From the NCBI GenBank assembly GCA_959020415.1, contig CAUERX010000003.1, positions 5,783 through 69,782 on the forward strand: DNA of 64,000 nt. The letters are read 5' to 3'. The DNA is from an uncultured bacterium (GTDB taxonomy: Bacteria; Bacillota_I; Bacilli_A; RF39; UBA660). The notes under the pieces were generated by a model, which did no database searches, had not been told where the DNA came from, and worked only from the letters and a program-made list of their open reading frames with translations. This document shows, in pieces, positions 24,297 to 38,785 of the stretch. A program made the translations under genes and the position numbers. The first letter of the stretch is position 1; each line of letters opens with the position of its first letter.

Positions 24297-24391
24297 AGCA
24301 TAGACAGCTGTCTATGTTAGGAAGACTTACGAATATAATGTGAGTATTCCGACCAAAACCCCCTGAAGGCTACCGAAAGGTAGCCATTTTT
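24297..24391 (+). ncRNA. Candidate ~95-nt small RNA (unknown family) downstream of recG; its terminator region carries the IME attachment core
   Basis: It follows the promoter above and has no ORF. Three predicted hairpins: CATAGACAG/CTGTCTATG, GGAAGACTTAC...GTGAGTATTCC, and GGCTACC-gaaa-GGTAGCC plus a T-run. Confidence 0.35.
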
Positions 24392-24481
24392 GTTTATTTA
24401 TGGGTATTTTTTGATATTTTGATAGTACGCTACCCATCATTCTACCCATCAAGTTGATGGTTTATTATAGTTTATATAGGT

Positions 24482-25669
24482 TTAATCAGAAGACTTATCG
24501 TTAAAGTCTTTTTCTAATGAGTCAAAAAATTTAGGAACATTTGCATAATCTTTTTTGACTAAATGGGTATATGTTTCTAATGTTTCTGTTGTTTCTGAGT
24601 GGCCTAGATAATTAGATACAGCGGTAATAGGTGCAGCAGCTGATATTAAAGCACTAGCACAAGAATGTCTAAAATCGTGAATTCTAATATGTCTAAGTCC
24701 AGCTTTCTTACAATAATTATTATTTCTACTGTAAATTTGATGATAGGTTATAGGAGTATCATCTCCAAATACAAACCAGGTTTGTTTAAACTTTGAAAAA
24801 CGTTCATTTGATTTTTTTAATTTAGCTAAGTCTTTTAATAAAACTTCAGGAATGGGAATAGTTCTATTAGATGATTCTGTTTTAGGACTTGCTATATACC
24901 ATGAACTACTAGCGTTATTTCCAGCTAAATTTAAAACTTGTTGAGCTATTGTTAAAGTATGATTCTTAAAATCAATATGTCTCCATTGTAAACCTCTAGC
25001 TTCACTTCTTCTAAGTCCACAGTAATATAATGTTTCAAATAAACATTTATCACGCAAATCATTTATTACTGATATATATTGAAAAAATTCTTGTGGTTCA
25101 TAAAAATCCATTTCTTTTTTTATAGCCCCAGGTGTTTTAAATGGTTCTAATTTATTATAAAATTTTCTTAAATTAAAATCCCATTGTTTTTCAGCAAAGT
25201 TTAATACTTGTTTAATAAATTTCTGTATATCAGTTTTATATTTATCACATAAATTAGTTTTATTCATTTGAGATCTCCATTTTTGATAGTGTTCCCAGTT
25301 CAAATTTACTAATTCTATATTATCTAATAAACCCATATATTTAATTCTATCTCTATATGTCTTTAGAGTAGAGTCTTTTATTTTATCTTTTTGATATTCA
25401 TAATAAAGTGTATATGCTTCTTTAAAAGTCATATGGGGATTAACTTCAACATCTTTATATTTATCTAAATATTCTAGTTCTGCTTTTGTTGCTTCTTCTT
25501 TGGTAAAATAGGCTTGTGATTGATATTGATGTCTTTTACCATCTAATCCTTTACTATATTGTATAAATACCCAAGATCTTCCATCTCTTGTTCGTTTATT
25601 TTCTTTAAGCTGTCTTACGGACATTAATTTATTACCTCCTTTATTAATCCGTAAAATATCGACATACAT
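24482..25669 (-). CDS. int: Tyrosine-type site-specific integrase
   Basis: C-terminal catalytic signature: GLRRSEARGL (Arg), HDFRHSCAS (H-x-x-R), LGHSETTETLETYTH (His...Tyr). N-terminal SAM-like arm/core-binding region. Confidence 0.9.
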   Translation of the reverse strand: MYVDILRINKGGNKLMSVRQLKENKRTRDGRSWVFIQYSKGLDGKRHQYQSQAYFTKEEATKAELEYLDKYKDVEVNPHMTFKEAYTLYYEYQKDKIKDSTLKTYRDRIKYMGLLDNIELVNLNWEHYQKWRSQMNKTNLCDKYKTDIQKFIKQVLNFAEKQWDFNLRKFYNKLEPFKTPGAIKKEMDFYEPQEFFQYISVINDLRDKCLFETLYYCGLRRSEARGLQWRHIDFKNHTLTIAQQVLNLAGNNASSSWYIASPKTESSNRTIPIPEVLLKDLAKLKKSNERFSKFKQTWFVFGDDTPITYHQIYSRNNNYCKKAGLRHIRIHDFRHSCASALISAAAPITAVSNYLGHSETTETLETYTHLVKKDYANVPKFFDSLEKDFNDKSSD

Positions 25670-25813
25670 CTATATTTTACCATTTATTTAATTGTTTTTA
25701 ATGATTATCTAATTAATTTATCGATTTTATCAATAAAAAAGACCAACATAAAGTTGCTCTAATTATCTATAATTATTTTCTTAAATATTTTTATTAAAAA
25801 AATTTAATCTATA

Positions 25814-26308
25814 TTATTTTAATAATCTTAATAGAAAAGAAAATCTCCAATTTAAAGAATTTAATTCATATCTGTGTTCGGCATTAATAATTTCCATTTC
25901 AATATTATCTTTAGTTAATTTATCAATATTATTTTCGATGTTTTTATATGCATTAATTACTTCATTATTGTTAAAAGTGTCTTTTTTTAATTGGTAATCA
26001 ATGTTTTTTAATATATCTTTTTTTATATAATTCTGTTTTGTTTCAATATATAATAAACATTTTTTTAAATTAGTGGTATAGGCTAATAATAAGTCTTTTT
26101 GGATATCATTTAAATTTGTTAAAATGACTATTACAAGTATTTGATAAATTGTATAGCAAGTTATACATCTTTCTATAAAATCATATATCGTAGAAGTTCC
26201 TTTCATAAATGTTGATAAATAAGCAAGTGAGGTTGATACACCAATAACTTCAACTAAATAAATAAAAATCTGTGTTAATGTTTTTGATATAATATATCTT
26301 TTTTTCAT
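25814..26308 (-). CDS. Hypothetical membrane protein (2 TM helices + coiled-coil tail), IME cargo
   Basis: 164 aa. Two N-terminal hydrophobic helices and a K/N/E-rich C-terminal half. No family recognised. Confidence 0.55.
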   Translation of the reverse strand: MKKRYIISKTLTQIFIYLVEVIGVSTSLAYLSTFMKGTSTIYDFIERCITCYTIYQILVIVILTNLNDIQKDLLLAYTTNLKKCLLYIETKQNYIKKDILKNIDYQLKKDTFNNNEVINAYKNIENNIDKLTKDNIEMEIINAEHRYELNSLNWRFSFLLRLLK

Positions 26309-26339
26309 AAGGCATCACTCTTTCTAAAGAAGTATTATA

Positions 26340-27788
26340 TCATAATTCAAAATCATCAGATTTATCTTTATCATATTTTTTATTAATTTTTTTACTTAAA
26401 CTTTTGAAAGAGTAGTGGTCATATTCTTGTTTTTTATCAACATCTAGACCTAGTGTTCTTTTTAGAGCTTTAAATAAATCAGTGGCAACTTCTTTAACAT
26501 TAGAGATTATTTCATTAAATGTTTCTTTTAATTCTGATATTTCTTTTCTAAGTGAATTAATAATTGTATTTTGATAATTTATTGTTTCATCTTTTTCTTC
26601 AATAATTAATTTTTGATTTTCAATAATTTTATCTTTTTCTTGTAAAGTTTTACCTGATTTAAGATTTCTTATTTCGTTATTTAATTTATCAATTTGTTTT
26701 TGTTTATACTTGAGATTAATTTCATTTTGTTCAATTGTTTTATCTTTATTTAAATTATCTTTAGTTACTTCTTTAGAATAATTAGATAAATTGATAATAT
26801 CTTTTTCTTTATATCCAATTATTCTGCCTTTTTCAGGATTTAGAAGGGGATTAGTATCGACATCAGATATTTTATCTTTATATTTTAATTCTACTTTGTT
26901 TAAATCTTTATTTTTGTTATATTCCATTTTTATTAGTTTAGTTTCTGCTCTAAGTTCATCTAAATATTTTTCTGCTTTTGTTTGATGATGTTTATTAGCT
27001 CCAATTTGACCCCTATCAAGATTGAATCCTTTATCATTAATATATTTATTATAATCATCTTGAATTTTAGCAAATGAAGTTTTAAATCCTCGGTCTTTCC
27101 AAAATTGATCGGAATTTAAGAATCTTCCATATTCGATAGTATACATATTTTTTCCGTTTTCATCTTTCTTTTGAATAGGTATTAATTTTTCTTTCCCATC
27201 TTTCCCAACATATGACTTTAATAATTGATGACCATTTTCATCAGTTTCAAATACTTTTCTATGAACTTGATTTACTACTGGAGTAAAATAAAAATGCATA
27301 TGAGGAGTATCTTCGTCAAAATGAATAGCAGAGTAGACTACATTTTCTTTTCCAACTAAATCACACAAAAATTGATGAGAATATTCAAAATAATCTAATA
27401 CTTTTTTCGGAATATCATTTTTATCATTAATAACAACTTTATTTATAGGTTCACCTTTATGATCTCCAGTTAAATGAATCCTACCTGTTTCTTCAAATTT
27501 CATTCCTAATGCTTTGAAAAATTCTTGACCACTTGTTATTACACATCCGTTTAATAAGTTGATTTTTTTATTATTTTTATTAAATTCTACCTTGTTATTA
27601 TAAAGCGTTTTATAAGTTGAACTAGCTAAATTAGTACTACAAAGAGGAACATATTCTATATTAAATTTTGTTCTATTTGTATCGTAATTACCTGTGCCAA
27701 TTCTATCAGTAAGTTCTTTACCAAGACCACCAATATCAGAAGATTTTATTTTGTTTGTTATTGTTAAAACTTGTTTACCAGCAAACAT
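26340..27788 (-). CDS. mob: MobV-family (Mob_Pre) plasmid-recombination/relaxase protein
   Basis: HFDEDTPHMHFYFTPV matches the MobV HxDE..PHxH motif III. Long C-terminal coiled-coil, as in pMV158-type Mob proteins. Confidence 0.8.
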   Translation of the reverse strand: MFAGKQVLTITNKIKSSDIGGLGKELTDRIGTGNYDTNRTKFNIEYVPLCSTNLASSTYKTLYNNKVEFNKNNKKINLLNGCVITSGQEFFKALGMKFEETGRIHLTGDHKGEPINKVVINDKNDIPKKVLDYFEYSHQFLCDLVGKENVVYSAIHFDEDTPHMHFYFTPVVNQVHRKVFETDENGHQLLKSYVGKDGKEKLIPIQKKDENGKNMYTIEYGRFLNSDQFWKDRGFKTSFAKIQDDYNKYINDKGFNLDRGQIGANKHHQTKAEKYLDELRAETKLIKMEYNKNKDLNKVELKYKDKISDVDTNPLLNPEKGRIIGYKEKDIINLSNYSKEVTKDNLNKDKTIEQNEINLKYKQKQIDKLNNEIRNLKSGKTLQEKDKIIENQKLIIEEKDETINYQNTIINSLRKEISELKETFNEIISNVKEVATDLFKALKRTLGLDVDKKQEYDHYSFKSLSKKINKKYDKDKSDDFEL

Positions 27789-27870
27789 AATATAATCCTT
27801 TCGTTAGTTTATGACGTTGTGACATTAGATATTTGGGTGGGATTGTTCTTTTGGTCATTTTATGACCTAT

Positions 27871-28004
27871 CTCACTAGGGCATAGCCCGAAAGTGAGTTA
27901 AGGGAAACCCTTAAAAACCCATTCTTGTTTATAGCAAAGACTTAAGATATACTTAAGCCTAAGCTAATAAACAAGTGCTTATTTATTTTAACGATAAATA
28001 AGCA
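27871..28004 (-). promoter_or_regulatory. Candidate oriT / mob promoter region (cluster of inverted repeats)
   Basis: Nested IR CTCACT-a-GGGC-ata-GCCC-ga-AAGTGAG (27871-97). TTAAGGG-aaa-CCCTTAA (27898-914). CTTAAG-atata-CTTAAG (27941-57). TGCTTATTTAT-N7-ATAAATAAGCA (27976-28004). All sit in the 268-bp gap upstream of mob. Confidence 0.4.
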
Positions 28005-28057
28005 GAAGATGAATCATTATCGCCACTTTCACTTGCAAGCAAGCAAAACGTGCCACA

Positions 28058-29023
28058 TTAATCATCTTCATTTTGCGAAGGCTCTATAAATGTAGCATGA
28101 TATAATCTGCTTTCAGCAGTTCTACATTTAGTGATATGAATACCTTCGCTTTCTAAGAGTTCCAGACTACTATTAAGTAGTCTACCAAATCTCTTAGGTG
28201 ACATTGGTATATTGGCTTTTAACACAATATCAGTACAAGTAAAATCAATTTCTTTTTGACTAGCAACATACTTTATAAAAGAAGTCATTTCATATGAAAG
28301 TTCATCATCTTCAATAGAATTTATTTTTTGAAATATAAGATTATCTAATTTTTTTAATTGGATGTCTAACTCTGGAAAATCTCTATTAATTGTTTGTAAT
28401 TTAACATATCTTTTATTAGATTTATTTTCTATTAAAGTGATTCTACCATCTACTGTTGCATCTAATGCAACACTTCCTAAAGTTTTACCAGTTTTATTTA
28501 GATGATGTGTAACTAAAAAAGTAACATTATATTTATCACAATAAGTTCTTAATTTTGGAAATACCTGCTGAGCAACATCTTGATAATTATTAATGTCATA
28601 TTGAACTCCAAAATCAATATCTTTTAACATATCTAATATTATTAATTTACCATTGTAATCCTCAGCAAAAACTTTAATATCGTATTCTATATCTCTTAAT
28701 GATATATTAGCTTTTGTTTGTCTATCTATTATAAATAGTGAGTCGTTTTTTGCGGAAAGTTCTAGGAATTCTAGACGTTCCTTTAATTGACCAGCATCAG
28801 ATTCTGTGGTAACATATAAAACAGGTGAGTGATTTACTTTTTGTCCTAAAAAAGGTGTTCCGTTAATAACGGAGCAGGAAAGTTGCAGTGCCAACATAGA
28901 CTTTCCTACTTTTGGATTAGAAACTAGTAGATACACGCCTTTAGACTTCATTATATTATTTATGATGATGTCTTTTTTTATGCTTGTATCTACTTTTTCA
29001 ATAGGTTTGAGCAATTTTAACAT
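28058..29023 (-). CDS. RepA/DnaB-like RecA-fold ATPase (AAA_25-type) of the IME
   Basis: Walker A SNPKVGKSM, Walker B LIILDML, 321 aa. This type is commonly paired with integrase and relaxase on small islands. Confidence 0.65.
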   Translation of the reverse strand: MLKLLKPIEKVDTSIKKDIIINNIMKSKGVYLLVSNPKVGKSMLALQLSCSVINGTPFLGQKVNHSPVLYVTTESDAGQLKERLEFLELSAKNDSLFIIDRQTKANISLRDIEYDIKVFAEDYNGKLIILDMLKDIDFGVQYDINNYQDVAQQVFPKLRTYCDKYNVTFLVTHHLNKTGKTLGSVALDATVDGRITLIENKSNKRYVKLQTINRDFPELDIQLKKLDNLIFQKINSIEDDELSYEMTSFIKYVASQKEIDFTCTDIVLKANIPMSPKRFGRLLNSSLELLESEGIHITKCRTAESRLYHATFIEPSQNEDD

Positions 29024-29261
29024 CTCCCTTCAAATTTTTACTTCTTGATTCTAAATAATCAATATCGATATTTAAATATTTAACAACTTCTCGCATTGGT
29101 ACAGCGTTCTTTGGAACATAATAACCTTTACTTTCTAAATCATTTTTGATTTTACTTTTAATAGTTAATGCTGAATTTCTGCCTATATTTGCAAGTTTCA
29201 TTAAATCTGATAAGTTGCACCATTGTTGTGCAATAAGCTTTAAAGTTTCATCTACGGTCAT
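28998..29261 (-). CDS. Small DNA-binding protein (excisionase/HTH-like)
   Basis: 87 aa. Overlaps the downstream ATPase gene. The LSDLMKLANIGRNSALTIKSKI segment is HTH-like. Its position is typical of Xis-type or regulatory proteins. Confidence 0.45.
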   Translation of the reverse strand: MTVDETLKLIAQQWCNLSDLMKLANIGRNSALTIKSKIKNDLESKGYYVPKNAVPMREVVKYLNIDIDYLESRSKNLKGDVKIAQTY

Positions 29262-29274
29262 ATTACACCTCCTT

Positions 29275-29592
29275 TTATCTTTCTAATTCTTCGTATTTTT
29301 CGTATCTTATATCAACAACTTTTTTATATTCATCAGTAGGTTGCATAGAGATACTAAGACCAAGATATGAATCTTTACTAACACATTCTTCTAAGCCAAA
29401 GAAATGTGCATAATCATTTTCCATTAATTCATTAGCAAACTTTATAGTTTCTGCTTTAGTATTAGGATCTAATAGAAGTTGTCTTAATGATGTGGTTACA
29501 TCAAAACATATTAAGCAATATAGTCCTTTAGCTCCTAATGATAACTTAGAATTTTCTAAAACATCATTTCTAATAGAAGTAAAGTATTTCAT
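29275..29592 (-). CDS. Hypothetical wHTH protein (replication-initiator/DnaD-N-terminal-like)
   Basis: FTSIRNDVLENSKLSLGAKGLYCLI resembles the FT-IPN-ll-d--LS--aKglY wHTH seen in phage and plasmid Rep proteins. Start set at ATG 29592, 8 nt after a GGAGGTG RBS that lies inside the longer ORF call. Confidence 0.45.
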   Translation of the reverse strand: MKYFTSIRNDVLENSKLSLGAKGLYCLICFDVTTSLRQLLLDPNTKAETIKFANELMENDYAHFFGLEECVSKDSYLGLSISMQPTDEYKKVVDIRYEKYEELER

Positions 29593-29755
29593 ATATTTTT
29601 TCACCTCCTTCATTATCTAAAAAGGGTAGAGTACTTTCGGGCATAAGCCCTTTTGAAATTTTAGTTATTTCATAACTTGATATATTAGTCATACCATAAC
29701 TCCTCTTTGCCAGTATGAGGATAATTTCTGCCTTGCATTTTTTACTTAATGGCAT
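29570..29755 (-). CDS. Possible small Cro/Xis-like protein (61 aa), uncertain
   Basis: Internal Met of the 91-aa track ORF. Divergent from the XRE gene. Overlaps the next gene by 23 nt. No clear RBS. Confidence 0.25.
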   Translation of the reverse strand: MPLSKKCKAEIILILAKRSYGMTNISSYEITKISKGLMPESTLPFLDNEGGEKIYEILYFY

Positions 29756-29812
29756 ATCGGCGATTTCCACTAAGACTAAGTTTTCAAATAACAAATTTAA
29801 CTTAACATTTCG

Positions 29813-29880
29813 TGTCCGAAATATCAGTCGATTAAAATATAACACTGTCCGAAAAACTTGTCAATACTTTTTGTCCGAAA
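29813..29880 (+). promoter_or_regulatory. Three TGTCCGAAA direct repeats (candidate operators) in the divergent IME control region
   Basis: TGTCCGAAA occurs at 29813-21, 29846-54 and 29872-80. The third lies in the spacer of TTGTCA (29858-63)-N18-TATAGA (29882-87), upstream of the XRE gene. Confidence 0.5.
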
Positions 29881-29931
29881 TTATAGACAACTTTTTAAAA
29901 AAATGATAAAATTAGTTAAGAAGAAGAAAAA

Positions 29932-30474
29932 ATGGGAGAAAGAAGTGAATATATGAATTCAGGAGAACTTAAAAGTATTATTGAAAGTGCTAGAGAAGCT
30001 AAAGGTATATCACAAAGAGAACTTGCAAAGTTATCAGGAATCAGTAGAAGTACTTTAAATGATATTATTAATGGCAAAATAAAAAAAATAGATGTAGATG
30101 CATTAAAAAAGATAGCTGAAACATTAGACTTATCTTTGAAAAAATTATTAAAAGTAGCAGGATATGATGAATTTCTAGATTATTTATCATTAGATAGATA
30201 TAAAAATAAATCCACAAGGGATTTAAAAGATATGATAGAAAGATATAAAAAGTCCCAATTAGATTTATTAGATTGGGATGCTAAAAAAAGAGCAGTAGTA
30301 AATGATGCAAGAGGAAAATTATTTTATACTATGGAACATTTAAAATTAATGCAAGAAAATAAGGATAGTTTATATACGATTGATAAAGCTATAGAAGATA
30401 TAAAATATGCTTTTGATGAATTGGTAAAAGCTCAAAATAAATATGATTACAGCAAATTGCCAAAGGATTTTTAG
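29932..30474 (+). CDS. XRE-family HTH regulator with ~110-aa helical C-terminal domain
   Basis: ISQRELAKLSGISRSTLNDIINGK is a classic Cro/CI HTH. First gene of the plus-strand cargo block. Confidence 0.8.
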   Translation: MGERSEYMNSGELKSIIESAREAKGISQRELAKLSGISRSTLNDIINGKIKKIDVDALKKIAETLDLSLKKLLKVAGYDEFLDYLSLDRYKNKSTRDLKDMIERYKKSQLDLLDWDAKKRAVVNDARGKLFYTMEHLKLMQENKDSLYTIDKAIEDIKYAFDELVKAQNKYDYSKLPKDF

Positions 30475-30498
30475 ACAAAGTAGACATCAGTACACTAT

Positions 30499-31653
30499 AT
30501 GGAGGTAGAAATTATGAGTAGATTAAAACCGTTTATAAAATGGGCAGGTGGTAAAGAAAAAGAATTACCTATAATAATTGATAATTTGCCAACTAATTTT
30601 GATAGGTATGTAGAACCGTTTGTAGGTGGTGGATCAGTTTATTTATCAATGAATTGTAAATCATCAGTCATAAATGATAAATCAGATGAATTAATGTTAC
30701 TTTATAGTATGATTAAAGATAATAATAAAGAGTTTCATAGAAGTTTAAAAGAAATAAATAAAAATTGGATTGAGATAGAAAAAATAGTAAAGAATAGTTC
30801 AGAGGAATTACTAGATTTATATAATATGTTCAAAAAAAATGAGTATGAACTAGATGATTTAGTAGATAAATATATGAAAAATCATGCTAAAGAACTAAAT
30901 AAATTACTAAAAGAAGATTTAGATATTAATTTATATAATCTAATTATTGAAATAAAGAAAAATTTGTTATCTAAAATAAATAGAATGTACAAAATTGAAA
31001 AACAACGTGGTGAAATGTGTTTGACTGATGTTATGGACAATCTTGAAACAGCATTTAAAAGTGCTTATTATATGTATTTTAGATATTTATATAATAATAG
31101 AAAAAAACTTAAATTAAGCGATGAATTTTATTGTGCAGTATTCTATTTTATAAGAGATTATTGTTATTCGGCAATGTTTAGATATAATGCAAATGGTGAA
31201 TTTAATGTACCGTATGGAGGTATTAGCTATAATAGAAAAGACTTTAAGAAAAAAATAGATTATATTGAATCTGAAGAATTAATTAATAAATTATCTGAAA
31301 CTAAATTATATTGTTTAGATTTTGAGAAATTTTGTAATGAAGTAAAATTAACTGAAAAAGATTTTATGTTTTTAGATCCACCATATGATACTGAATTTTC
31401 TACTTATGCAAAAAATGATTTTGATAAAGATGATCAAATAAGGTTGGCAAACTATCTTAAAAATACAAAGGCTAAATTTATGCTAATTATTAAAAATACA
31501 GATTTTATTTATGATTTATATAAGAATAAAGGCTTTAACATAATTGTTTTTGATAAAAAATATTTAGTTAGTTTTATGAATAGAAATAATAAAAAAACTG
31601 AACATTTACTTATAACTAATTATGAATCGGAGGTAAAAAATGGAACAAACTAA
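30499..31653 (+). CDS. Dam-type (D12 class, alpha) N6-adenine DNA methyltransferase with enlarged middle region
   Basis: KWAGGKEKELP, EPFVGGGSVYL (FxGxG SAM motif) and FLDPPYDTEF (DPPY motif IV). At 384 aa it is about 100 aa longer than canonical Dam, with the extra sequence between motif I and DPPY. Confidence 0.85.
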   Translation: MEVEIMSRLKPFIKWAGGKEKELPIIIDNLPTNFDRYVEPFVGGGSVYLSMNCKSSVINDKSDELMLLYSMIKDNNKEFHRSLKEINKNWIEIEKIVKNSSEELLDLYNMFKKNEYELDDLVDKYMKNHAKELNKLLKEDLDINLYNLIIEIKKNLLSKINRMYKIEKQRGEMCLTDVMDNLETAFKSAYYMYFRYLYNNRKKLKLSDEFYCAVFYFIRDYCYSAMFRYNANGEFNVPYGGISYNRKDFKKKIDYIESEELINKLSETKLYCLDFEKFCNEVKLTEKDFMFLDPPYDTEFSTYAKNDFDKDDQIRLANYLKNTKAKFMLIIKNTDFIYDLYKNKGFNIIVFDKKYLVSFMNRNNKKTEHLLITNYESEVKNGTN

Positions 31654-32452
31654 AGAAAATAAAATAAGAGAAAAAGTGAGAAACGCAATAAGAGAATTTT
31701 CTGAAAAATTTGAAGAAAGATATATGAGAGAATTAAACGATTCTACAGGTGTTATTAATGCAAAAAAGAATAATGCCTTCGTTTCTGAATTAGGAAATGA
31801 ATTTATGTTTTATTCAGCTTTTTGTCGATCTTTTGATTCTAGTTTTGGGAAAGTACTAGAAAAATTATCAAACGATATTGCAGGTATTTCATATGAAGTA
31901 GTTTTAGAAAATATATCGTCTTATTTGTTACCAGAACAAATTCAACGTAAATCAAATATTATGAATGAATATGACAAGCACGTTAAACCAAGGGTTGAAG
32001 ATTATACATCATTACATGCATATAAGCCAACAAATGTAGATAGTTATAAAAAGAAACATGTTACAGACAATCATTTTTATAAAAAAGATACTAAAGAACA
32101 TTTTATAATTGAATTAAAAGCTGGTGGAGATTTAGATATTAAAAAAGCTAAAAGTGAAAAAGAAGCTTTAATAGATCAATATTATATTTTATCAAACGCA
32201 TTGGATGATCCGGAAGAAAGTGTAAAAATATATTTGGCAACTGCCTATAATATGTATGGAGAAGGAAATGAATGGAGACAAGAAAGAGTAAAACAGTTTT
32301 TTAGTGATGATGAATTGCTAATTGGAAAAGAATATTGGGATTTTGTGTGCGATGATGAAAATGGCTACAATATAATTATTGATGAATATAAAAAAAGTGC
32401 TAGATATATATTAGAAGCTTTAGATAGAATTAAAACAGCATATTTCAATTAA
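31640..32452 (+). CDS. PD-(D/E)xK nuclease-like protein, probable restriction endonuclease partner
   Basis: HVTDNHF...HFIIELKAGGDLDIKKAKSEKEAL gives a D...E-L-K motif. Overlaps the methylase stop by 14 nt and has a GGAGG RBS. Possibly TdeIII-like, from memory only and unverified. Confidence 0.55.
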   Translation: MEQTKENKIREKVRNAIREFSEKFEERYMRELNDSTGVINAKKNNAFVSELGNEFMFYSAFCRSFDSSFGKVLEKLSNDIAGISYEVVLENISSYLLPEQIQRKSNIMNEYDKHVKPRVEDYTSLHAYKPTNVDSYKKKHVTDNHFYKKDTKEHFIIELKAGGDLDIKKAKSEKEALIDQYYILSNALDDPEESVKIYLATAYNMYGEGNEWRQERVKQFFSDDELLIGKEYWDFVCDDENGYNIIIDEYKKSARYILEALDRIKTAYFN

Positions 32453-32479
32453 ATTTTATATCAAGAAAGAAGTGGTAAA

Positions 32480-34615
32480 ATGAAAATTGATTTTCATTGT
32501 CATACAATAAAAAGTAAAAGTGAAGAATCTGAAGAACGAAATGTAAGTGTCAATTTATTTAAAGAAAAAGTATTATTGAGTGGAGTTAAAATAATTGCAA
32601 TAACAAACCACAACATATTTGATAAAGATCAATATTACGAATTTAAAGCCGCTGTTAAAGATAATTGTCAAATATGGCCAGGAATAGAATTAGATGTTAT
32701 TGGACAAAGTGGTGCAAATGGACACTTAATATTAATAGCTAATCCTGATGATGTAGAGGAATTTTCTAAAAAGATAAATAAAATATTAAATGGTAGTACA
32801 CCAGATAATTTTAAAATAAATTTAGATGATTTATATAATGAGATTAAAATGCTTAATTTAGTTTATGTTGCACATTGTTTTAAATCGAAGGCTCTCCCAT
32901 TAAATGATATAGAAGAATTTTCAAAAATGTTAGAAAATCCTAAAAGATTATTTAAAGAACCAAGCTCTCTTACTTCTGTAACTGTTCTTCAATCAAATAA
33001 GCATAGAGTCGTTATCGGTACTGATGTTATTCATTGGGGTAATTATGAAAATTATAATTTTGGAGAGTTTAAATTTGAGTTAAAAGATTTTACTTCATTT
33101 ACTAAAATAATTGAAAAAGACAAATCATTTTTAAGAGATATAGTGGATGAAGAATTTAGTGAAAATGTAAAAGTATATGGTAAATTAGCTACTAAAGAGC
33201 ACCCATTTATTATACCTATATATAATGATTGTAATATAATTTTTGGTGATAAAGGAAGTGGGAAAACTGAAATATTAGAGTCGTTGGCTGAATATTATAA
33301 ACTAGAAAAAAATGAAGAACCGGTTTTTTATAAAGGTGGAGACAAAGAAGAGTGGTATAAAGGTTTAATAAAAATAAATAGCGAAGATTATGATCTTAAA
33401 AATTTTAAAGAAGTTGACGATAAAAAAGAAGAGTTAAAATATATTTCAAATTTTATAGATATTACTCCCGTATCTGTAAAAAAATATAAAGACTATTTTC
33501 AAAAAAAAGCAAAGAAAGCTAGCAAAGATAAAATGAAGTGTTTATCAATTAATAAAAGACATCTTTATAATGAAAATAAATACGTTGAAATATATAATGA
33601 TTATAAAAAAATCACTTCTTTTTTACGAGATTATAATAATATTGATACTAGCGATGTATTGGAAAATCAAGAAAATGAATTATTAACTTCATTGTTAAAA
33701 AAATTAAAAACTGGTTTATTTGAAAAATCTAGAACTGAATGGATTAATCAAAAATCAGAGTATTTATTTGATGATTTTGTTACAAATATGTCCATATATG
33801 TCTCAGAAAATGTTGGAGAACCGACAGCTCCTACTGAAACAGGGTTTGCTGCATATGCAAAGAATAGGCTAAAGATTAGAAGTTTTTCTTCAAGTATATT
33901 AGCTGAACTTGAAAAGTCAAATGAAGACGAAGGGATATATATTGGTAATTTAGGTGCCAAAGGAGACGTTTATTTATCTTCGAATTATTTTTTTATAAAT
34001 TGTAAAAATAAGAATGGTATCGATTACAAAATATTAAAAAATAATAAAGGAGATTTAAGTAACTTTGTGACGTTGTTAGAAAAATTAAAAAAAGATTTTA
34101 CTTTGGATATATCACGAACAGTAAACGATTTGAAAGTGCTTTATGATAAAGGAATAAATTCTATGACTGAATTTATTGCAGTTAAAAAAGATTTTAAATT
34201 AAATAAAATTAGTTATAAACCTTCAAAAGGAGAAAATTCTATACTTGCTTTGCAACATGAATTATTATCTAAAAAAGAAAAAAATGTTTTTCTTATAGAC
34301 GAACCAGATTTGAGCTTAGGCAGTACTTATATAAACGAGGTTATTGTTCCTTTATTTAAGGATTTAACAAAATCGCAAAAGATTTTAGTAGTTGCAACCC
34401 ATGATGCTAATATTGCAGTCAGAACTCGCCCTTTAAACAGTATTTTAAAGTTAACAGAAAATAATGTATATAAAACGTTTATTGGCAATATGTTTACTGA
34501 TGTATTAACTGATATTGATGATGAAAACAATCAACTAAGTTGGAAAGAACAAAGCATAAAGTATCTAGAGGGTGGAGAGCCAGCTTTTGAGGAAAGAGGA
34601 GAATTATATGAATAA
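32480..34615 (+). CDS. PHP phosphoesterase domain fused to Rad50/SbcC/OLD-like ABC ATPase (711 aa)
   Basis: PHP motifs: HCHT (aa 6-9), AITNHN, GIELD, GHLIL. Walker A GDKGSGKT (nt 33245-68). About 320 aa of K/E/N-rich insert. Signature-like PSKGENS. Walker B VFLIDEPD (nt 34286-). ATHD His-loop. Confidence 0.8.
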   Translation: MKIDFHCHTIKSKSEESEERNVSVNLFKEKVLLSGVKIIAITNHNIFDKDQYYEFKAAVKDNCQIWPGIELDVIGQSGANGHLILIANPDDVEEFSKKINKILNGSTPDNFKINLDDLYNEIKMLNLVYVAHCFKSKALPLNDIEEFSKMLENPKRLFKEPSSLTSVTVLQSNKHRVVIGTDVIHWGNYENYNFGEFKFELKDFTSFTKIIEKDKSFLRDIVDEEFSENVKVYGKLATKEHPFIIPIYNDCNIIFGDKGSGKTEILESLAEYYKLEKNEEPVFYKGGDKEEWYKGLIKINSEDYDLKNFKEVDDKKEELKYISNFIDITPVSVKKYKDYFQKKAKKASKDKMKCLSINKRHLYNENKYVEIYNDYKKITSFLRDYNNIDTSDVLENQENELLTSLLKKLKTGLFEKSRTEWINQKSEYLFDDFVTNMSIYVSENVGEPTAPTETGFAAYAKNRLKIRSFSSSILAELEKSNEDEGIYIGNLGAKGDVYLSSNYFFINCKNKNGIDYKILKNNKGDLSNFVTLLEKLKKDFTLDISRTVNDLKVLYDKGINSMTEFIAVKKDFKLNKISYKPSKGENSILALQHELLSKKEKNVFLIDEPDLSLGSTYINEVIVPLFKDLTKSQKILVVATHDANIAVRTRPLNSILKLTENNVYKTFIGNMFTDVLTDIDDENNQLSWKEQSIKYLEGGEPAFEERGELYE

Positions 34616-34898
34616 AAATATAATAGACGTTGAATTGATAACTGAAGAGGAAAAACAGTTATTAGTATTTAATTTTGATGAAAAAATATTTTTGGATTTA
34701 GCAAGTGATAATGCAGAAGAACTTAAAGATTTTTTTCAACAGTTATTAATAAAAATATTAGAAAAAAATATAGAATTAAATTTTGTTGAAAAAGATAGAA
34801 ATGATTTATTTTATGATGTTGCTAAAAAATATGTTGACCATTTGAAAGTTGAAATAGCATCTATTGTTAATCAACAGCTTAATAAAATTGATGATTAA
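34608..34898 (+). CDS. Small acidic protein (96 aa), translationally coupled to the PHP-ATPase
   Basis: ATG 34608 sits 6 nt after an AGGAG RBS and overlaps the upstream stop (ATGAATAA). D/E-rich with no recognised family. The track start at 34572 is unlikely. Confidence 0.6.
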   Translation: MNKNIIDVELITEEEKQLLVFNFDEKIFLDLASDNAEELKDFFQQLLIKILEKNIELNFVEKDRNDLFYDVAKKYVDHLKVEIASIVNQQLNKIDD

Positions 34899-35110
34899 GA
34901 AAATAAAATTTTGTTATATATGTTTTTAATGTCATTTTGTCATCATAATAAATAAAAAAACTGATGAATAATTTCTACCCATCAGCTACCCATCAAATTA
35001 TGCTGAATTTATCAATTTTTAGTTAAATTTTATTAAACTTAAAATGAATTGTATGCCGATATTACGGGGATTTTTAATAATCCTCTTTTTTTATTAAATT
35101 GCCCCCTGAA

Positions 35111-35137
35111 GGCGCCATATATTGGGCGCCGCTTTTT
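35111..35137 (+). terminator. Rho-independent terminator at the right IME junction (putative original terminator of the sRNA)
   Basis: GGCGCC-atatattg-GGCGCC-GC-TTTTT directly follows the CCCCCTGAAGGC core. Confidence 0.6.
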
Positions 35138-35554
35138 GTTTGAAATAAAAAATTTGTGACCTTTTTAATTTTTAGGTATAGTTATTACTGAAACTTATAG
35201 ATGAATTATAAGATACATACAATGCAATGAATTAGTAAGGAGTAATTATTTTAATAATTACTTCAGAGTGTTGGCAATTTTCAATACTCTTTTTTTTGTA
35301 AAAAAAATTGTAATATAATGTTTTAGCGAATAGGAATTTTCAACAACATAATTGTGTCACTTTTCCATATAAAAAGTAAGGATTGTAAGCTTTGTAGTTG
35401 GTTAAAATAAAGCATCATTACTATTGATTATCTTATAAATTTAAAAGACTATTGATATAATTTACTTTGTTAACAACAGTGAACTTACTATGTAAGTTTT
35501 TTGTAGTAAATATTTTTTATATCTGATATAATCAAATTAAAGAGGAGTTAAATT

Positions 35555-37890: not shown

Positions 37891-38294
37891 ATGAACGAAG
37901 GAATTGAAATCTTTCCAAGAGGAGATAAAAATCCTTTTGGTCAATATTTTAGTGGTCAAAGTTATTTAAGTATGCTTTCAACAGAAGGAGTAGTTATTGG
38001 AAATGTAACTTTTGAACCAGGTTGTATTAATAATTGGCATATTCATCATGCAAATAAAGGTGGCGGACAGATTTTATTAGTAACATCTGGCCGTGGTTAT
38101 TATCAAGAATGGGGAAAAGAGCCAATTGAATTACATTCTGGCGATGTAGTAAAATTCCAGCTAATGTCAAGCATTGGCACGGCGCTGCTAAGGATAATGT
38201 GTTTGTTCATTTTGCGATTGAGGTTCCGGGTGAAGAAGCAACTAATGAATGGTGTGAACCAGTTAGTAATGATGATTACTGTAATCTTAAATAG
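37891..38294 (+). pseudogene. Cupin-domain protein gene with a 1-nt frameshift in an A-run
   Basis: The frame is good to GDVVK (38143-54). The conserved continuation IPANVKHWHGAAKDNVFVHFAIEVPGEEATNEWCEPVSNDDYCNLK-stop (38292-94) is read starting from 38154, which is also the last base of the AAA Lys codon. A4 at 38151-54 should therefore be A5. Confidence 0.7.
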
Positions 38295-38302
38295 GAGGCG
38301 TT

Positions 38303-38785
38303 ATGAAAACATTAATAGTTTATTTTTCGTATAGTGGTAATACGAGAATAATTAGTAATTATATAAATAGTAAAATTAATTCTGATATGTTAGAGTTAGA
38401 AACGTTGGTTAAATATTCTGACGATTATAGTCAAGTTACTTATCAAGGAAAAGATGAAGTTGAGCAGGAATTTAAACCAAGGTTAAAGGTAAACGATTTA
38501 AATTTACAAGATTATGATATTATTTTATTAGGTAGTCCAATTTGGTGGTATACAATTGCACCAGCGGTTAGAACGTTTTTATCAGAAAATGATTTATCTG
38601 GAAAGAAATTATTTCCTTTTATAACTAATGGTGGATATGGGCTTGGTCATAGTTTAGAAGATATTAAAACTTTATGTACTTGCGAAGTTGGTAAAGTATT
38701 GGAAATCCCATTTGAGGGTAACTATCAAATAAAAGATAATATTGAAATAGATGGTTGGTTAAAAGAAATAGAGGAGATGAAATAA
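38303..38785 (+). CDS. Flavodoxin-like protein
   Basis: MKTLIVYFSYSGNTR N-terminus and LGSPIWWY, typical of the flavodoxin_4 type. AGGAGG RBS. Confidence 0.8.
   Translation: MKTLIVYFSYSGNTRIISNYINSKINSDMLELETLVKYSDDYSQVTYQGKDEVEQEFKPRLKVNDLNLQDYDIILLGSPIWWYTIAPAVRTFLSENDLSGKKLFPFITNGGYGLGHSLEDIKTLCTCEVGKVLEIPFEGNYQIKDNIEIDGWLKEIEEMK

What the first reader, a model, noticed from the sequence alone, without database searches (positions are those of the whole stretch)
32480..34898. One-polypeptide SbcCD-like architecture: PHP phosphoesterase replaces Mre11/SbcD in front of a Rad50-like split ABC ATPase
The N-terminal ~230 aa carry PHP metal-ligand motifs (HCHT, TNHN, GIELD, GHLIL). The remainder is an ABC ATPase split by a ~320-aa Lys/Glu/Asn-rich insert.
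- Walker A is GDKGSGKT at codon 256.
- The signature-like SKGENS, Walker B VFLIDEPD (about codon 603) and ATHD follow the insert.

This topology matches Rad50/SbcC/OLD-class proteins that clamp or sense DNA ends. Fusing such an ATPase to a PHP nuclease or phosphatase suggests an ATP-gated DNA (or nucleotide) degrading machine. The translationally coupled acidic 96-aa protein could be an inhibitor, an immunity factor or an adaptor.
Basis: partly seen in the sequence, partly recalled or inferred. Interest (0 to 1): 0.7.

Follow-up and report, generated by a model that had tools for sequence, protein, structure and literature searches.

The report
Ppl-like PHP nuclease–ATPase with small partner
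This is a two-gene module, very likely for phage defence: a predicted metal-dependent PHP nuclease fused to an ATP-binding sensor domain, plus a small acidic partner protein. It is a shorter, untested relative of the known Ppl defence protein and rides on a small mobile island next to a restriction system.

Summary
ORF 32480-34615 encodes 711 aa, and every quoted motif sits at the stated codon. A 96-aa acidic ORF (34608-34898) overlaps its stop codon by 8 nt.

The N-terminus is a PHP fold and the rest is a soluble SMC/Rad50/AriA-type ABC ATPase head. The head is split by a helical insert of about 135-190 aa, not a long Rad50 coiled coil.

The "fused SbcCD" reading is only an analogy. The protein aligns end to end with TrlF-family proteins, whose best PADLOC match is Ppl. 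Ppl is a validated single-gene defence protein, reported to be an NTP-gated 3'-5' ssDNA exonuclease. The window protein's own best PADLOC match is the untested candidate PDC-M49A.

This clade differs from Ppl in three ways:
- It is about 170 aa shorter.
- Its Walker B Asp-Glu is invariant.
- It always has a homologous acidic partner of about 100 aa (79 of 79 full-length loci, in bacteria and archaea) with no known relative.

Neighbouring genes vary but are often defence or mobility genes. Here the pair is the last cargo of a 10.8-kb integrative mobilizable island, directly downstream of a type II restriction-modification system.

Most likely it is an ATP/NTP-gated PHP nuclease defence system whose partner acts as regulator. 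It is a new variant of a known kind and is experimentally untested.

The parts
32480..34615 (+). Gene A: 711-aa PHP-ABC ATPase fusion (Ppl/TrlF/PDC-M49A-like)
   Evidence: ORF. Best PADLOC match is PDC-M49A, E 8e-35. NCBIfam TrlF_fam_ATP scores E 5e-18, below its cut-off. The AF2 model has pLDDT 90.4. There are 374 cluster representatives at E<=1e-30.
32480..33157 (+). PHP phosphoesterase domain, residues 1-226. Invariant D4 H6 H8 N43 H44 E70 H82 H132 D182.
   Evidence: Foldseek matches Pol III alpha PHP 4gx9 at E 1.6e-6 and RNase AM 7ug9 at 1.1e-5. Invariant columns. Pfam PHP scores only 19.1 bits, below the gathering score of 26.4. This is one of the two most conserved segments.
33158..33514 (+). 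ABC ATPase N-lobe, residues 227-345, with Walker A GDKGSGKT at 33245-33268
   Evidence: Beta strands 227-256 and the P-loop helix 262-276 in the model. G256/G259/G261/K262 are invariant. It aligns to AriA residues 13-60.
33515..33919 (+). Helical insert, residues about 346-480 (helices 365-385, 396-445, 456-477). Presumed dimerisation or arm module.
   Evidence: DSSP assignment on the AF2 model. This is the least conserved segment. The corresponding region is about 170 aa longer in TrlF.
33920..34615 (+). ABC C-lobe and conserved C-terminal tail. Signature SKGENS at 34223-34240, Walker B VFLIDEPD at 34286-34309, H-loop ATHD at 34394-34405, tail LEGGxxAFxERGxLYE.
   Evidence: Invariant S582 G584 E585 D607 E608 H641 and a near-invariant tail. 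It aligns to AriA 367-430 and to the C-terminus of TrlF.
34608..34898 (+). Gene B: 96-aa acidic partner protein (pI 4.46), overlapping the stop of gene A by 8 nt
   Evidence: Sequence and properties. A homologue is present in 79 of 79 full-length loci. There are 554 homologues, none named and none with a Pfam domain. The model is beta3-alpha-beta-alpha, pLDDT 78.8. It has no significant structural neighbour.
34596..34601 (+). GAGGAG Shine-Dalgarno sequence for gene B, inside the 3' end of gene A
   Evidence: Read directly from the sequence.
29932..32452 (+). Upstream genes on the same strand: XRE-type HTH (29932-30474), Dam-family MTase (30499-31653), TdeIII-type REase (31640-32452). Gaps to the next gene are at most 27 nt. 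Probably one transcription unit with A and B.
   Evidence: Pfam and NCBIfam matches. No terminator-like site lies between 29932 and 34898. A promoter-like site is at 29884-29912.
35066..35140 (+). Two terminator-like hairpins downstream of B. The second overlaps the right island end.
24359..35113 (.). Integrative mobilizable island of about 10.8 kb that carries the module. It has a CCCCCTGAAGGC core at both ends, paired CTACCCATCA repeats, an integrase at 24482-25669(-), a Mob_Pre relaxase at 26340-27788(-) and an AAA_25 protein at 28058-29023(-).
   Evidence: The same block appears in metagenome contigs with different flanks.

Best explanation
Genes A and B form a self-contained two-gene anti-phage (or anti-mobile-DNA) defence module of the Ppl/TrlF/PDC-M49 superfamily. 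Here it is cargo on an integrative mobilizable island, next to a type II restriction-modification system.

Proposed mechanism, with the basis for each step:
1. A dimerises through its ABC heads, and probably through its helical insert. Two nucleotides are sandwiched between Walker A of one subunit and the signature motif of the other. This follows from the general mechanism of ABC ATPases; all the catalytic motifs are shown to be intact and invariant.
2. The nucleotide-bound state keeps the N-terminal PHP metallo-nuclease off. This is inferred by homology to Ppl, which is reported to be inhibited by bound NTPs.
3. Infection-linked cues release the PHP domain. Candidates are free DNA ends and/or a fall in the nucleotide pool. 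The PHP domain then degrades DNA exonucleolytically and stops phage replication. This is inferred.
4. The small acidic protein B is a stoichiometric regulatory subunit, made by translational coupling. Most likely it is a safety catch or adaptor that binds A, possibly by occupying a nucleic-acid-binding surface, and it sets what the system responds to. This is inferred from strict co-occurrence, correlated A and B trees and conserved acidity. No direct evidence exists.
For: Fold and catalytic residues: PHP fold and ABC head fold; invariant metal-ligand and ATPase motifs.

Homology to Ppl/TrlF: the family profile aligns end to end with a TrlF-family protein, 1-711 against 16-874 of 878, probability 98.2%, with every motif in register. 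The best PADLOC match of TrlF proteins is Ppl, at 3e-34 and 3e-35. One family member hits the Ppl model directly at 1.4e-6. Ppl is a validated defence gene and is reported as an NTP-inhibited ssDNA 3'-5' exonuclease that senses 3'-OH ends (PMC12904381; PMC11482910; reference 10 of PMC13223576).

Defence-library match: the best PADLOC match for the window protein and for 10 of 10 distant relatives is the candidate PDC-M49A.

Genomic context:
- type II restriction-modification systems, GmrSD, McrBC and type I HsdR as neighbours, and one placement inside a BREX locus;
- ResIII/HsdR proteins, integrases and transposases the commonest among 135 flanking ORFs;
- copies on plasmids of Clostridium, Photobacterium and Staphylococcus;
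- patchy spread over many bacterial phyla and two archaeal MAGs.

Partner gene: present in 79 of 79 full-length loci with its start abutting the stop of A. The A and B distance matrices correlate at r 0.94, Mantel 0 of 999. 78 of 80 B proteins have pI below 5.5.
Against: - No member of this clade, nor of PDC-M49, has been tested, as far as the searchable literature shows.
- The window protein itself does not hit the Ppl model at E<=0.1. It is far below the TrlF cut-off, 65 bits against 350.
- The substrate of the PHP domain cannot be read from sequence. PHP enzymes include phosphatases and RNases as well as DNA exonucleases.
- The Ppl mechanism is known to me only second-hand, from a review; the primary paper could not be read.
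- Ppl works without any partner, so the role of B has no precedent to lean on.
- B has no significant structural or sequence relative.
- Correlated A and B trees would also follow from tight linkage alone.
Confidence: 0.6

Rival explanations
1. A and B are a toxin-antitoxin-like addiction module that stabilises the island or plasmid. A is a nuclease toxin and B is its labile acidic antitoxin. Any phage protection would be a by-product (abortive infection).
For: The pair lies on an integrative mobilizable island here and on plasmids elsewhere. B is small, acidic, translationally coupled and never absent. The weak, non-significant fold resemblances of B include HicB-like antitoxins.
Against: Classical type II antitoxins are usually encoded upstream and carry a DNA-binding domain, which B lacks. 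Many copies are chromosomal and lie in defence islands or inside BREX loci. The homologue Ppl is a bona fide defence gene that needs no antitoxin. The two readings overlap in mechanism.
Confidence: 0.15
2. A and B are an accessory of the adjacent restriction-modification system, not an autonomous system. For example, they might process DNA ends made by the restriction enzyme.
For: In the window A starts 27 nt after the REase gene, with no terminator in between. Several relatives directly follow different type II restriction-modification pairs. E. coli TrlF lies inside a type I restriction-modification operon. Ppl is reported to act on 3'-OH ends made by an endonuclease (PMC12904381).
Against: The neighbouring restriction-modification type differs from locus to locus. 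Most of the 135 flanking ORFs in 80 genomes are not restriction-modification genes, and no third gene is conserved. Plasmid copies lack an adjacent restriction-modification system.
Confidence: 0.1
3. The PHP domain does not act on DNA. It is a phosphatase or RNase, for example acting on nucleotides, signalling molecules or RNA 5' ends as RNase AM does. The ATPase would gate that activity.
For: Among the PHP structural neighbours are RNase AM (7ug9, 9etk), a 5'-3' exoribonuclease. NCBIfam also gives a weak CehA/McbA metallohydrolase match. Some databases name relatives 'histidinol phosphatase'.
Against: The closest full-length homologues belong to the Ppl/TrlF group, and Ppl is reported to be a DNA exonuclease (PMC12904381). 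The ATPase belongs to the nucleic-acid-associated SMC/Rad50/AriA group.
Confidence: 0.1
4. A is a housekeeping DNA-repair machine, a one-polypeptide functional equivalent of SbcCD/Mre11-Rad50.
For: The domain logic is the same: a metallo-phosphoesterase plus a Rad50-like split ABC head. Rad50, RecN and cohesin heads are among the structural hits.
Against: The distribution is patchy and horizontally transferred. Copies sit on mobile islands and plasmids and in defence islands. There is no long coiled coil and no zinc hook. The nearest sequence relatives are defence ATPases: AriA, AbiLi, PtuA.
Confidence: 0.05

Closest known systems
Ppl defence protein (ppl; listed with the Gao et al. 2020 systems; PADLOC model PDLC02208, 894 positions; mechanism in Xu et al., Mol Cell 2026, as summarised in PMC12904381)
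   Same: N-terminal PHP domain followed by an ABC-type NTPase. The domain order inferred through TrlF is the same. One member of this family hits the C-lobe of the Ppl model at E 1.4e-6. Both are found in defence contexts.
   Different: Ppl is a single-gene system of about 890 aa. This protein is 711 aa, has a much shorter insert and always comes with a 96-120-aa acidic partner. The window protein does not reach the Ppl model at E<=0.1.
TrlF family AAA-like ATPase (NCBIfam NF045780). Examples: Vibrio tubiashii p123, WP_004748894.1, and E. coli AR_0137, WP_088263294.1.
   Same: Collinear homology from the first PHP motif to the C-terminal EGGxxAFxxR tail. hhalign gives 98.2% probability over 1-711 against 16-874. 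The C-lobe and tail align to the E. coli protein at 96.2%.
   Different: TrlF proteins are 878-879 aa (the model has 944 positions). The window protein scores 65 bits against a cut-off of 350. Both TrlF proteins examined have Walker B Asp-Gln, whereas this family has an invariant Asp-Glu. TrlF genes sit in larger operons, with a RecB-like nuclease or a type I restriction-modification system, and have no small acidic gene downstream. No B-like domain is detectable within TrlF.
PDC-M49 (PADLOC-DB v2 'phage defence candidate', two genes A+B). Example on Enterococcus faecalis plasmids, L102.
   Same: The same two-gene layout: a PHP-ABC ATPase of about 670-710 aa followed by an acidic protein of about 100 aa. 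PDC-M49A is the best PADLOC match for this family and covers the full length.
   Different: Scores are modest: 118 bits here against 650 bits for a true member. The B protein here and five B proteins from related loci do not match PDC-M49B. Profile comparison with the Enterococcus PDC-M49B finds nothing. PDC-M49 itself is only a computational candidate, and no paper mentions it.
PARIS AriA, Septu/retron PtuA, AbiLi and OLD-type soluble ABC ATPases of defence systems
   Same: An ABC head split by a helical insert. AriA is the closest solved protein by sequence profile (E 1e-10). PtuA (9n69) and AriA (8v46) are among the fold hits. There are also weak PADLOC hits.
   Different: In those systems the nuclease (TOPRIM or HNH) is a separate protein or is fused at the C-terminus. 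None has a PHP domain.
SbcCD / Mre11-Rad50
   Same: A metallo-phosphoesterase nuclease working with a split ABC ATPase head. Rad50 heads are structural neighbours.
   Different: Mre11/SbcD is a calcineurin-like phosphoesterase, not a PHP domain, and it is a separate subunit. Rad50/SbcC has a coiled coil hundreds of residues long with a zinc hook, which is absent here. SbcCD is a vertically inherited repair system, whereas this is mobile defence-island cargo.
PHP exonuclease domains of Pol III alpha, PolX and RNase AM (YciV)
   Same: The best structural matches for residues 1 to about 226. The His/Asp/Glu ligand pattern is conserved.
   Different: Those are domains of polymerases or stand-alone RNases with no fused ABC ATPase. 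The Pfam PHP score here is below the gathering threshold.

Membership tests
Ppl (PADLOC PDLC02208) | Significant match to the Ppl profile | tested here: not met
   The window protein has no Ppl hit at E<=0.1. Only 1 of 10 relatives hits, at E 1.4e-6 and in the C-lobe only. TrlF proteins reach about 1e-34.
Ppl (PADLOC PDLC02208) | N-terminal PHP domain fused to an ABC-type NTPase in one polypeptide | tested here: met
   AF2 model and Foldseek search. Collinear alignment with a Ppl-like TrlF protein.
Ppl (PADLOC PDLC02208) | Single-gene system (no obligatory partner) | tested here: not met
   A homologous small gene follows A in 79 of 79 full-length loci.
Ppl (PADLOC PDLC02208) | NTP-inhibited 3'-5' ssDNA exonuclease activity and phage protection | not testable with these tools
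   This needs biochemistry and plaque assays. It is known for Ppl only from PMC12904381.
TrlF family (NCBIfam NF045780) | Score at or above the curated cut-off of 350 bits | tested here: not met
   65.2 bits, E 5e-18, matching residues 2-171 only.
PDC-M49 (PADLOC candidate) | Match to a PDC-M49A profile | tested here: inconclusive
   It is the best hit, at E 8e-35 and 118 bits, with full-length coverage in relatives. A true member scores 650 bits, and no curated cut-off is available.
PDC-M49 (PADLOC candidate) | Adjacent gene matching a PDC-M49B profile | tested here: not met
   No PDC-M49B hit for the window B protein or for five B proteins from related loci. hhalign against the Enterococcus PDC-M49B gives 0.3% probability. 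Size, position and acidity are analogous.
PHP domain (Pfam PF02811) | Pfam gathering score | tested here: not met
   19.1 bits against 26.4. Two relatives do carry a precomputed PF02811 hit.
PHP domain (Pfam PF02811) | PHP barrel fold with conserved His/Asp/Glu metal ligands | tested here: met
   Foldseek matches 4gx9, 7ug9, 2hnh and 9etk at E 1e-6 to 1e-4. H6 H8 H44 E70 H82 H132 D182 are invariant. Assigning each of these to a specific metal site rests on my own knowledge of PHP enzymes and was not measured here.
Rad50/SbcC-SMC class | ABC head with Walker A, signature, Walker B and H-loop, split by an insert | tested here: met
Rad50/SbcC-SMC class | Long antiparallel coiled coil with an apical zinc hook or hinge | tested here: not met
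   The longest helix is 50 residues and the helical insert is about 135-190 aa. The insert has a single Cys and no CxxC (sequence).
Rad50/SbcC-SMC class | Mre11/SbcD-type (calcineurin-like) nuclease partner | tested here: not met
   No such gene is in the island. The nuclease candidate is a fused PHP domain.
Transporter-type ABC ATPase | Compact nucleotide-binding domain with an adjacent permease gene | tested here: not met
   The head is split by a helical insert. There are no membrane-protein neighbours here or in related loci.

The most novel reading that the evidence does not exclude
This is a widespread two-component defence system, found in many bacterial phyla and in archaeal MAGs, that has not been validated. 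In it a Ppl-type PHP nuclease-ATPase has come under the control of a dedicated small acidic subunit of a previously undescribed fold family. That subunit would act as a nucleic-acid-mimicking safety catch or as the infection sensor. The system would then have a trigger logic different from the partner-less Ppl, and PADLOC's present models would fail to report it as a complete system.
Probability: 0.45. Interest if true: 0.6.

Novelty: new variant of a known kind. Interest (0 to 1): 0.45.

Why it matters
Ppl has only recently received a mechanism: a nuclease gated by nucleotide levels and DNA ends. This clade keeps the same catalytic chassis, but it is shorter and has a hydrolysis-competent Walker B. 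It is also strictly paired with a small acidic protein that has no known relative.

If it is a defence system, it gives a natural comparison for how one effector is rewired to a different control mechanism. It would also add a common module to the defence catalogue. There are 374 clusters (at 50% identity) with E<=1e-30, spread from gut Clostridia, Bacteroidota, Actinomycetota and staphylococcal plasmids to archaea. PADLOC's present models detect this clade only partly: the Staphylococcus aureus plasmid A protein has no PDC-M49A hit, and none of the six B proteins of this clade that were tested matches PDC-M49B.

It is not a new principle. The domain fusion itself is already known.

Tried and rejected
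- PDB sequence searches found no full-length relative. This held for the single protein, the family profile and TrlF. No Ppl or TrlF structure is in the PDB copy searched.
- No relatives were found in phage genomes (tblastn), and there were no PHROG hits for A or B.
- Rfam found nothing in 22-37 kb.
- A literature search for 'TrlF' returned only spectroscopy papers. 'PDC-M49' returned nothing. The primary Ppl paper is not held in the library.
It was redone with database proteins.
- Fold searches for B in the PDB and viral libraries gave only non-significant matches to RNase H-like, integrase-core and HicB-like folds, best E about 0.02 with TM-scores mostly 0.3-0.4. I do not rely on them.
- I tested whether B is a split-off piece of the longer Ppl/TrlF proteins, or related to part of A. 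It is not; hhalign probability is below 1%.
- I tested whether a third gene is conserved next to the pair. None is.
- The idea that Lys/Glu/Asn richness marks the insert was rejected.
- Promoter-like sites are not enriched over shuffled sequence, 54 against 44 +/- 7. The operon structure is therefore inferred only from gene spacing and the absence of terminators.
Full report
**1. What is in the sequence**

The ORF at 32480-34615 (+) encodes 711 aa.

| Motif | Codon |
|---|---|
| HCHT | 6 |
| TNHN | 42 |
| GIELD | 68 |
| GHLIL | 81 |
| GDKGSGKT | 256 |
| SKGENS | 582 |
| VFLIDEPD | 603 |
| ATHD | 639 |

The second ORF starts at the ATG at 34608. That is 8 nt before the TAA of the large gene, and a GAGGAG ribosome-binding site lies upstream at 34596-34601. 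It encodes 96 aa with pI 4.46 and net charge -10.

Two details of the observation need correction.
- The Lys/Glu/Asn content of the inter-motif region is 33%, against 28% in the rest of the protein. It is not distinctive in this AT-rich genome (24-25% G+C locally).
- Only part of the 320 residues between Walker A and the signature motif is an insert.

**2. Folds**

A 46-sequence alignment of full-length relatives (33-74% identity to the window protein) has invariant columns exactly at the expected catalytic positions:
- D4, H6, H8, N43, H44, E70, H82, H132 and D182 in the N-terminal domain;
- G256, G259, G261, K262 (Walker A);
- S582, G584, E585 (signature);
- D607, E608 (Walker B);
- H641 (H-loop).

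AlphaFold2 with this alignment gives a confident model, mean pLDDT 90.4. Foldseek against the PDB matches two regions.
- The N-terminal ~226 residues match PHP domains. Pol III alpha (4gx9) scores E 1.6e-6 and RNase AM (7ug9) scores 1.1e-5.
- The remainder matches the heads of PtuA (retron IA, 9n69), cohesin SMC1/3, Rad50, RecN, JetC and AriA.

Pfam alone would not have called the PHP domain, at 19.1 bits against a gathering score of 26.4.

The insert consists of short helices from about residue 290 and three longer ones: 365-385, 396-445 and 456-477. The longest is 50 residues. The insert has one cysteine and no CxxC hook (sequence). It is therefore a helical module of the kind seen in AriA, PtuA and OLD-type proteins, not a Rad50/SbcC coiled coil. 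By sequence profile the closest solved protein is AriA of PARIS, E 1e-10.

**3. Family placement**

PADLOC's best match is the candidate family PDC-M49A (E 8e-35). Weaker hits go to AbiLi, AriA, PtuA and GajA. NCBIfam gives a sub-threshold match of the PHP domain to 'TrlF family AAA-like ATPase', 65 bits against a cut-off of 350.

I retrieved TrlF proteins from a Vibrio plasmid and from an E. coli chromosome. Their best PADLOC match is Ppl, at 3e-34 and 3e-35.

Profile comparison aligns the present family with the Vibrio TrlF protein end to end: 1-711 against 16-874 of 878, probability 98.2%. All motifs are in register, including a conserved C-terminal tail, LEGGxxAFxERGxLYE against MEGGREAFERRKIIYQ. 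The C-lobe and tail also align with the E. coli protein.

Ppl is an experimentally validated single-gene defence protein with a PHP domain and an ATPase domain (PMC11482910; listed in PMC13223576). A 2026 review summarises its mechanism (PMC12904381):
- It is an ssDNA 3'-5' exonuclease.
- NTPs bound to both domains inhibit it.
- It is activated by nucleotide depletion together with 3'-OH ends made by a phage homing endonuclease.

The primary paper is Xu et al., Mol Cell 2026 (reference 10 in PMC13223576). I could not read it.

So the fusion is not new.

**4. What distinguishes this clade**

An exhaustive profile search finds 4163 cluster representatives at E<=1e-3 and 374 at E<=1e-30. Of the best 150, the full-length proteins (most of the list) are about 690-745 aa and match the profile from end to end; the shorter entries match only part of it.

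A scan of species-representative genomes returned 80 loci. They come from:
- Clostridia and Bacilli;
- Bacteroidota;
- Coriobacteriia (Collinsella, Eggerthella);
- Proteobacteria, Verrucomicrobia, Nitrospinales and Saccharibacteria;
- two archaeal MAGs.

In 79 of 79 full-length loci a small ORF follows gene A, with its ATG overlapping or abutting the stop codon. All 79 are homologous to the window's 96-aa protein.

| Property of the B family | Result |
|---|---|
| Acidity | 78 of 80 have pI below 5.5; median 4.58 |
| Correlation of A and B pairwise-identity matrices | r 0.94; Mantel 0 of 999 |
| Homologues in the protein database | 554, all unnamed, no Pfam domain |
| Predicted topology | beta3-alpha-beta-alpha, pLDDT 78.8 |
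| Structural neighbours | none significant in PDB or BFVD |

B is not a detached piece of TrlF or of A.

PDC-M49 proper, exemplified on Enterococcus plasmids, has the same layout: a PHP-ATPase plus an acidic protein of about 100 aa. However, its B protein shows no detectable similarity to this one. PADLOC's B models miss this clade entirely.

The two TrlF proteins examined have Asp-Gln in Walker B. This family has an invariant Asp-Glu.

**5. Context**

In the window the pair is the last cargo of an island of about 10.8 kb (about 24359-35113). The evidence for the island:
- lower G+C;
- a CCCCCTGAAGGC core at both ends, the only two copies in the window;
- paired CTACCCATCA repeats inside each end;
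- a tyrosine integrase, a Mob_Pre relaxase and an AAA_25 protein.

Identical islands occur in metagenome contigs with different flanking genes.

Directly upstream, on the same strand, are an XRE regulator, a Dam-family methyltransferase and a TdeIII-type restriction endonuclease. There is no terminator-like site between them and the pair.

Relatives lie in several settings:
- next to other type II restriction-modification systems, GmrSD, McrBC or type I HsdR, and in one case inside a BREX locus;
- on plasmids of Clostridium, Photobacterium and Staphylococcus.

Across 135 flanking ORFs no third gene is conserved. The most frequent families are ResIII/HsdR, integrases, DUF6602, methylases, RloB, GmrSD and transposases. 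No copy was found in phage genomes.

**6. Interpretation**

The best-supported reading is an autonomous two-gene defence module. The ABC heads dimerise around nucleotide and gate a PHP metallo-nuclease, as reported for Ppl. The acidic protein B is a stoichiometric regulator.

Shown here:
- the folds and the intact catalytic motifs;
- homology to TrlF/Ppl-type proteins;
- the obligate partner gene;
- the mobile and defence-island context.

Inferred:
- the substrate (DNA ends);
- gating by nucleotide;
- the role of B.

The rivals are listed with their tests: an addiction module, an accessory to the restriction-modification system, a PHP activity on something other than DNA, and housekeeping repair.

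**7. Verdict**

The module is a new variant of a known kind, namely Ppl-like PHP-ABC defence proteins. Its layout parallels the untested PADLOC candidate PDC-M49, but its partner family is undescribed. Interest is moderate. The main open point is what the small acidic subunit does.

Noticed in passing
window 24359-35113: An integrative mobilizable island of about 10.8 kb. It has a CCCCCTGAAGGC core at 24359 and 35102, and paired CTACCCATCA repeats at 24430/24442 and 34975/34986. It carries an integrase (24482-25669, -), a Mob_Pre relaxase (26340-27788, -) and an AAA_25 protein (28058-29023, -). It is inserted just downstream of recG. The same island is seen in several metagenome contigs with different flanks.
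   Followed up: partly
window 29932-32452: A type II restriction-modification cassette: an XRE-type HTH (possible control protein), a Dam-family N6-adenine methyltransferase and a TdeIII-type endonuclease. The MTase and REase genes overlap by 14 nt. The recognition site is unknown.
   Followed up: partly
L103:1993-10020 (E. coli AR_0137 chromosome): An E. coli TrlF-family PHP-ATPase (879 aa) is embedded in a type I restriction-modification operon, between hsdR and an 'RNA-binding domain' gene followed by hsdS. It lies next to Tn7-like transposition genes. Its Walker B is Asp-Gln, as in the Vibrio TrlF protein.
   Followed up: partly
L017 and L018, 1-12142: The A+B pair sits inside a BREX locus, after PglX and before PglZ. 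It is accompanied by DUF4238 and AbiH genes.
   Followed up: no
L102:3995-6319 (Enterococcus faecalis plasmid): The canonical PDC-M49A on common Enterococcus plasmids is annotated as 558 aa, while the model has 674 positions. A 345-nt gap separates it from PDC-M49B. This copy may be truncated or frameshifted.
   Followed up: no
L101:4001-6407 (S. aureus plasmid pCFSAN007850, and two further S. aureus plasmids with the same full-length match): Staphylococcal tet(K)/IS257 plasmids carry an A+B pair of this clade. B matches the clade's HMM at E 7e-15. The PADLOC PDC-M49A and PDC-M49B models do not detect either gene.
   Followed up: partly
L019:2529-8592 (Vibrio tubiashii p123): The Vibrio TrlF gene overlaps the end of a 1144-aa 'TM0106 family RecB-like nuclease' gene, whose best PADLOC match is MkoA. 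An SMEK-domain gene lies upstream. This looks like a larger multi-gene system.
   Followed up: no
L015:7142-7549: One contig encodes the same A protein as L016, but no small gene was called after it. This may be a disrupted B gene or a gene-calling miss.
   Followed up: no
window 37891-38334: A 147-aa ORF has an odd, low-complexity C-terminal tail and overlaps the start of the next gene at 38303. It may be a frameshifted gene.
   Followed up: no
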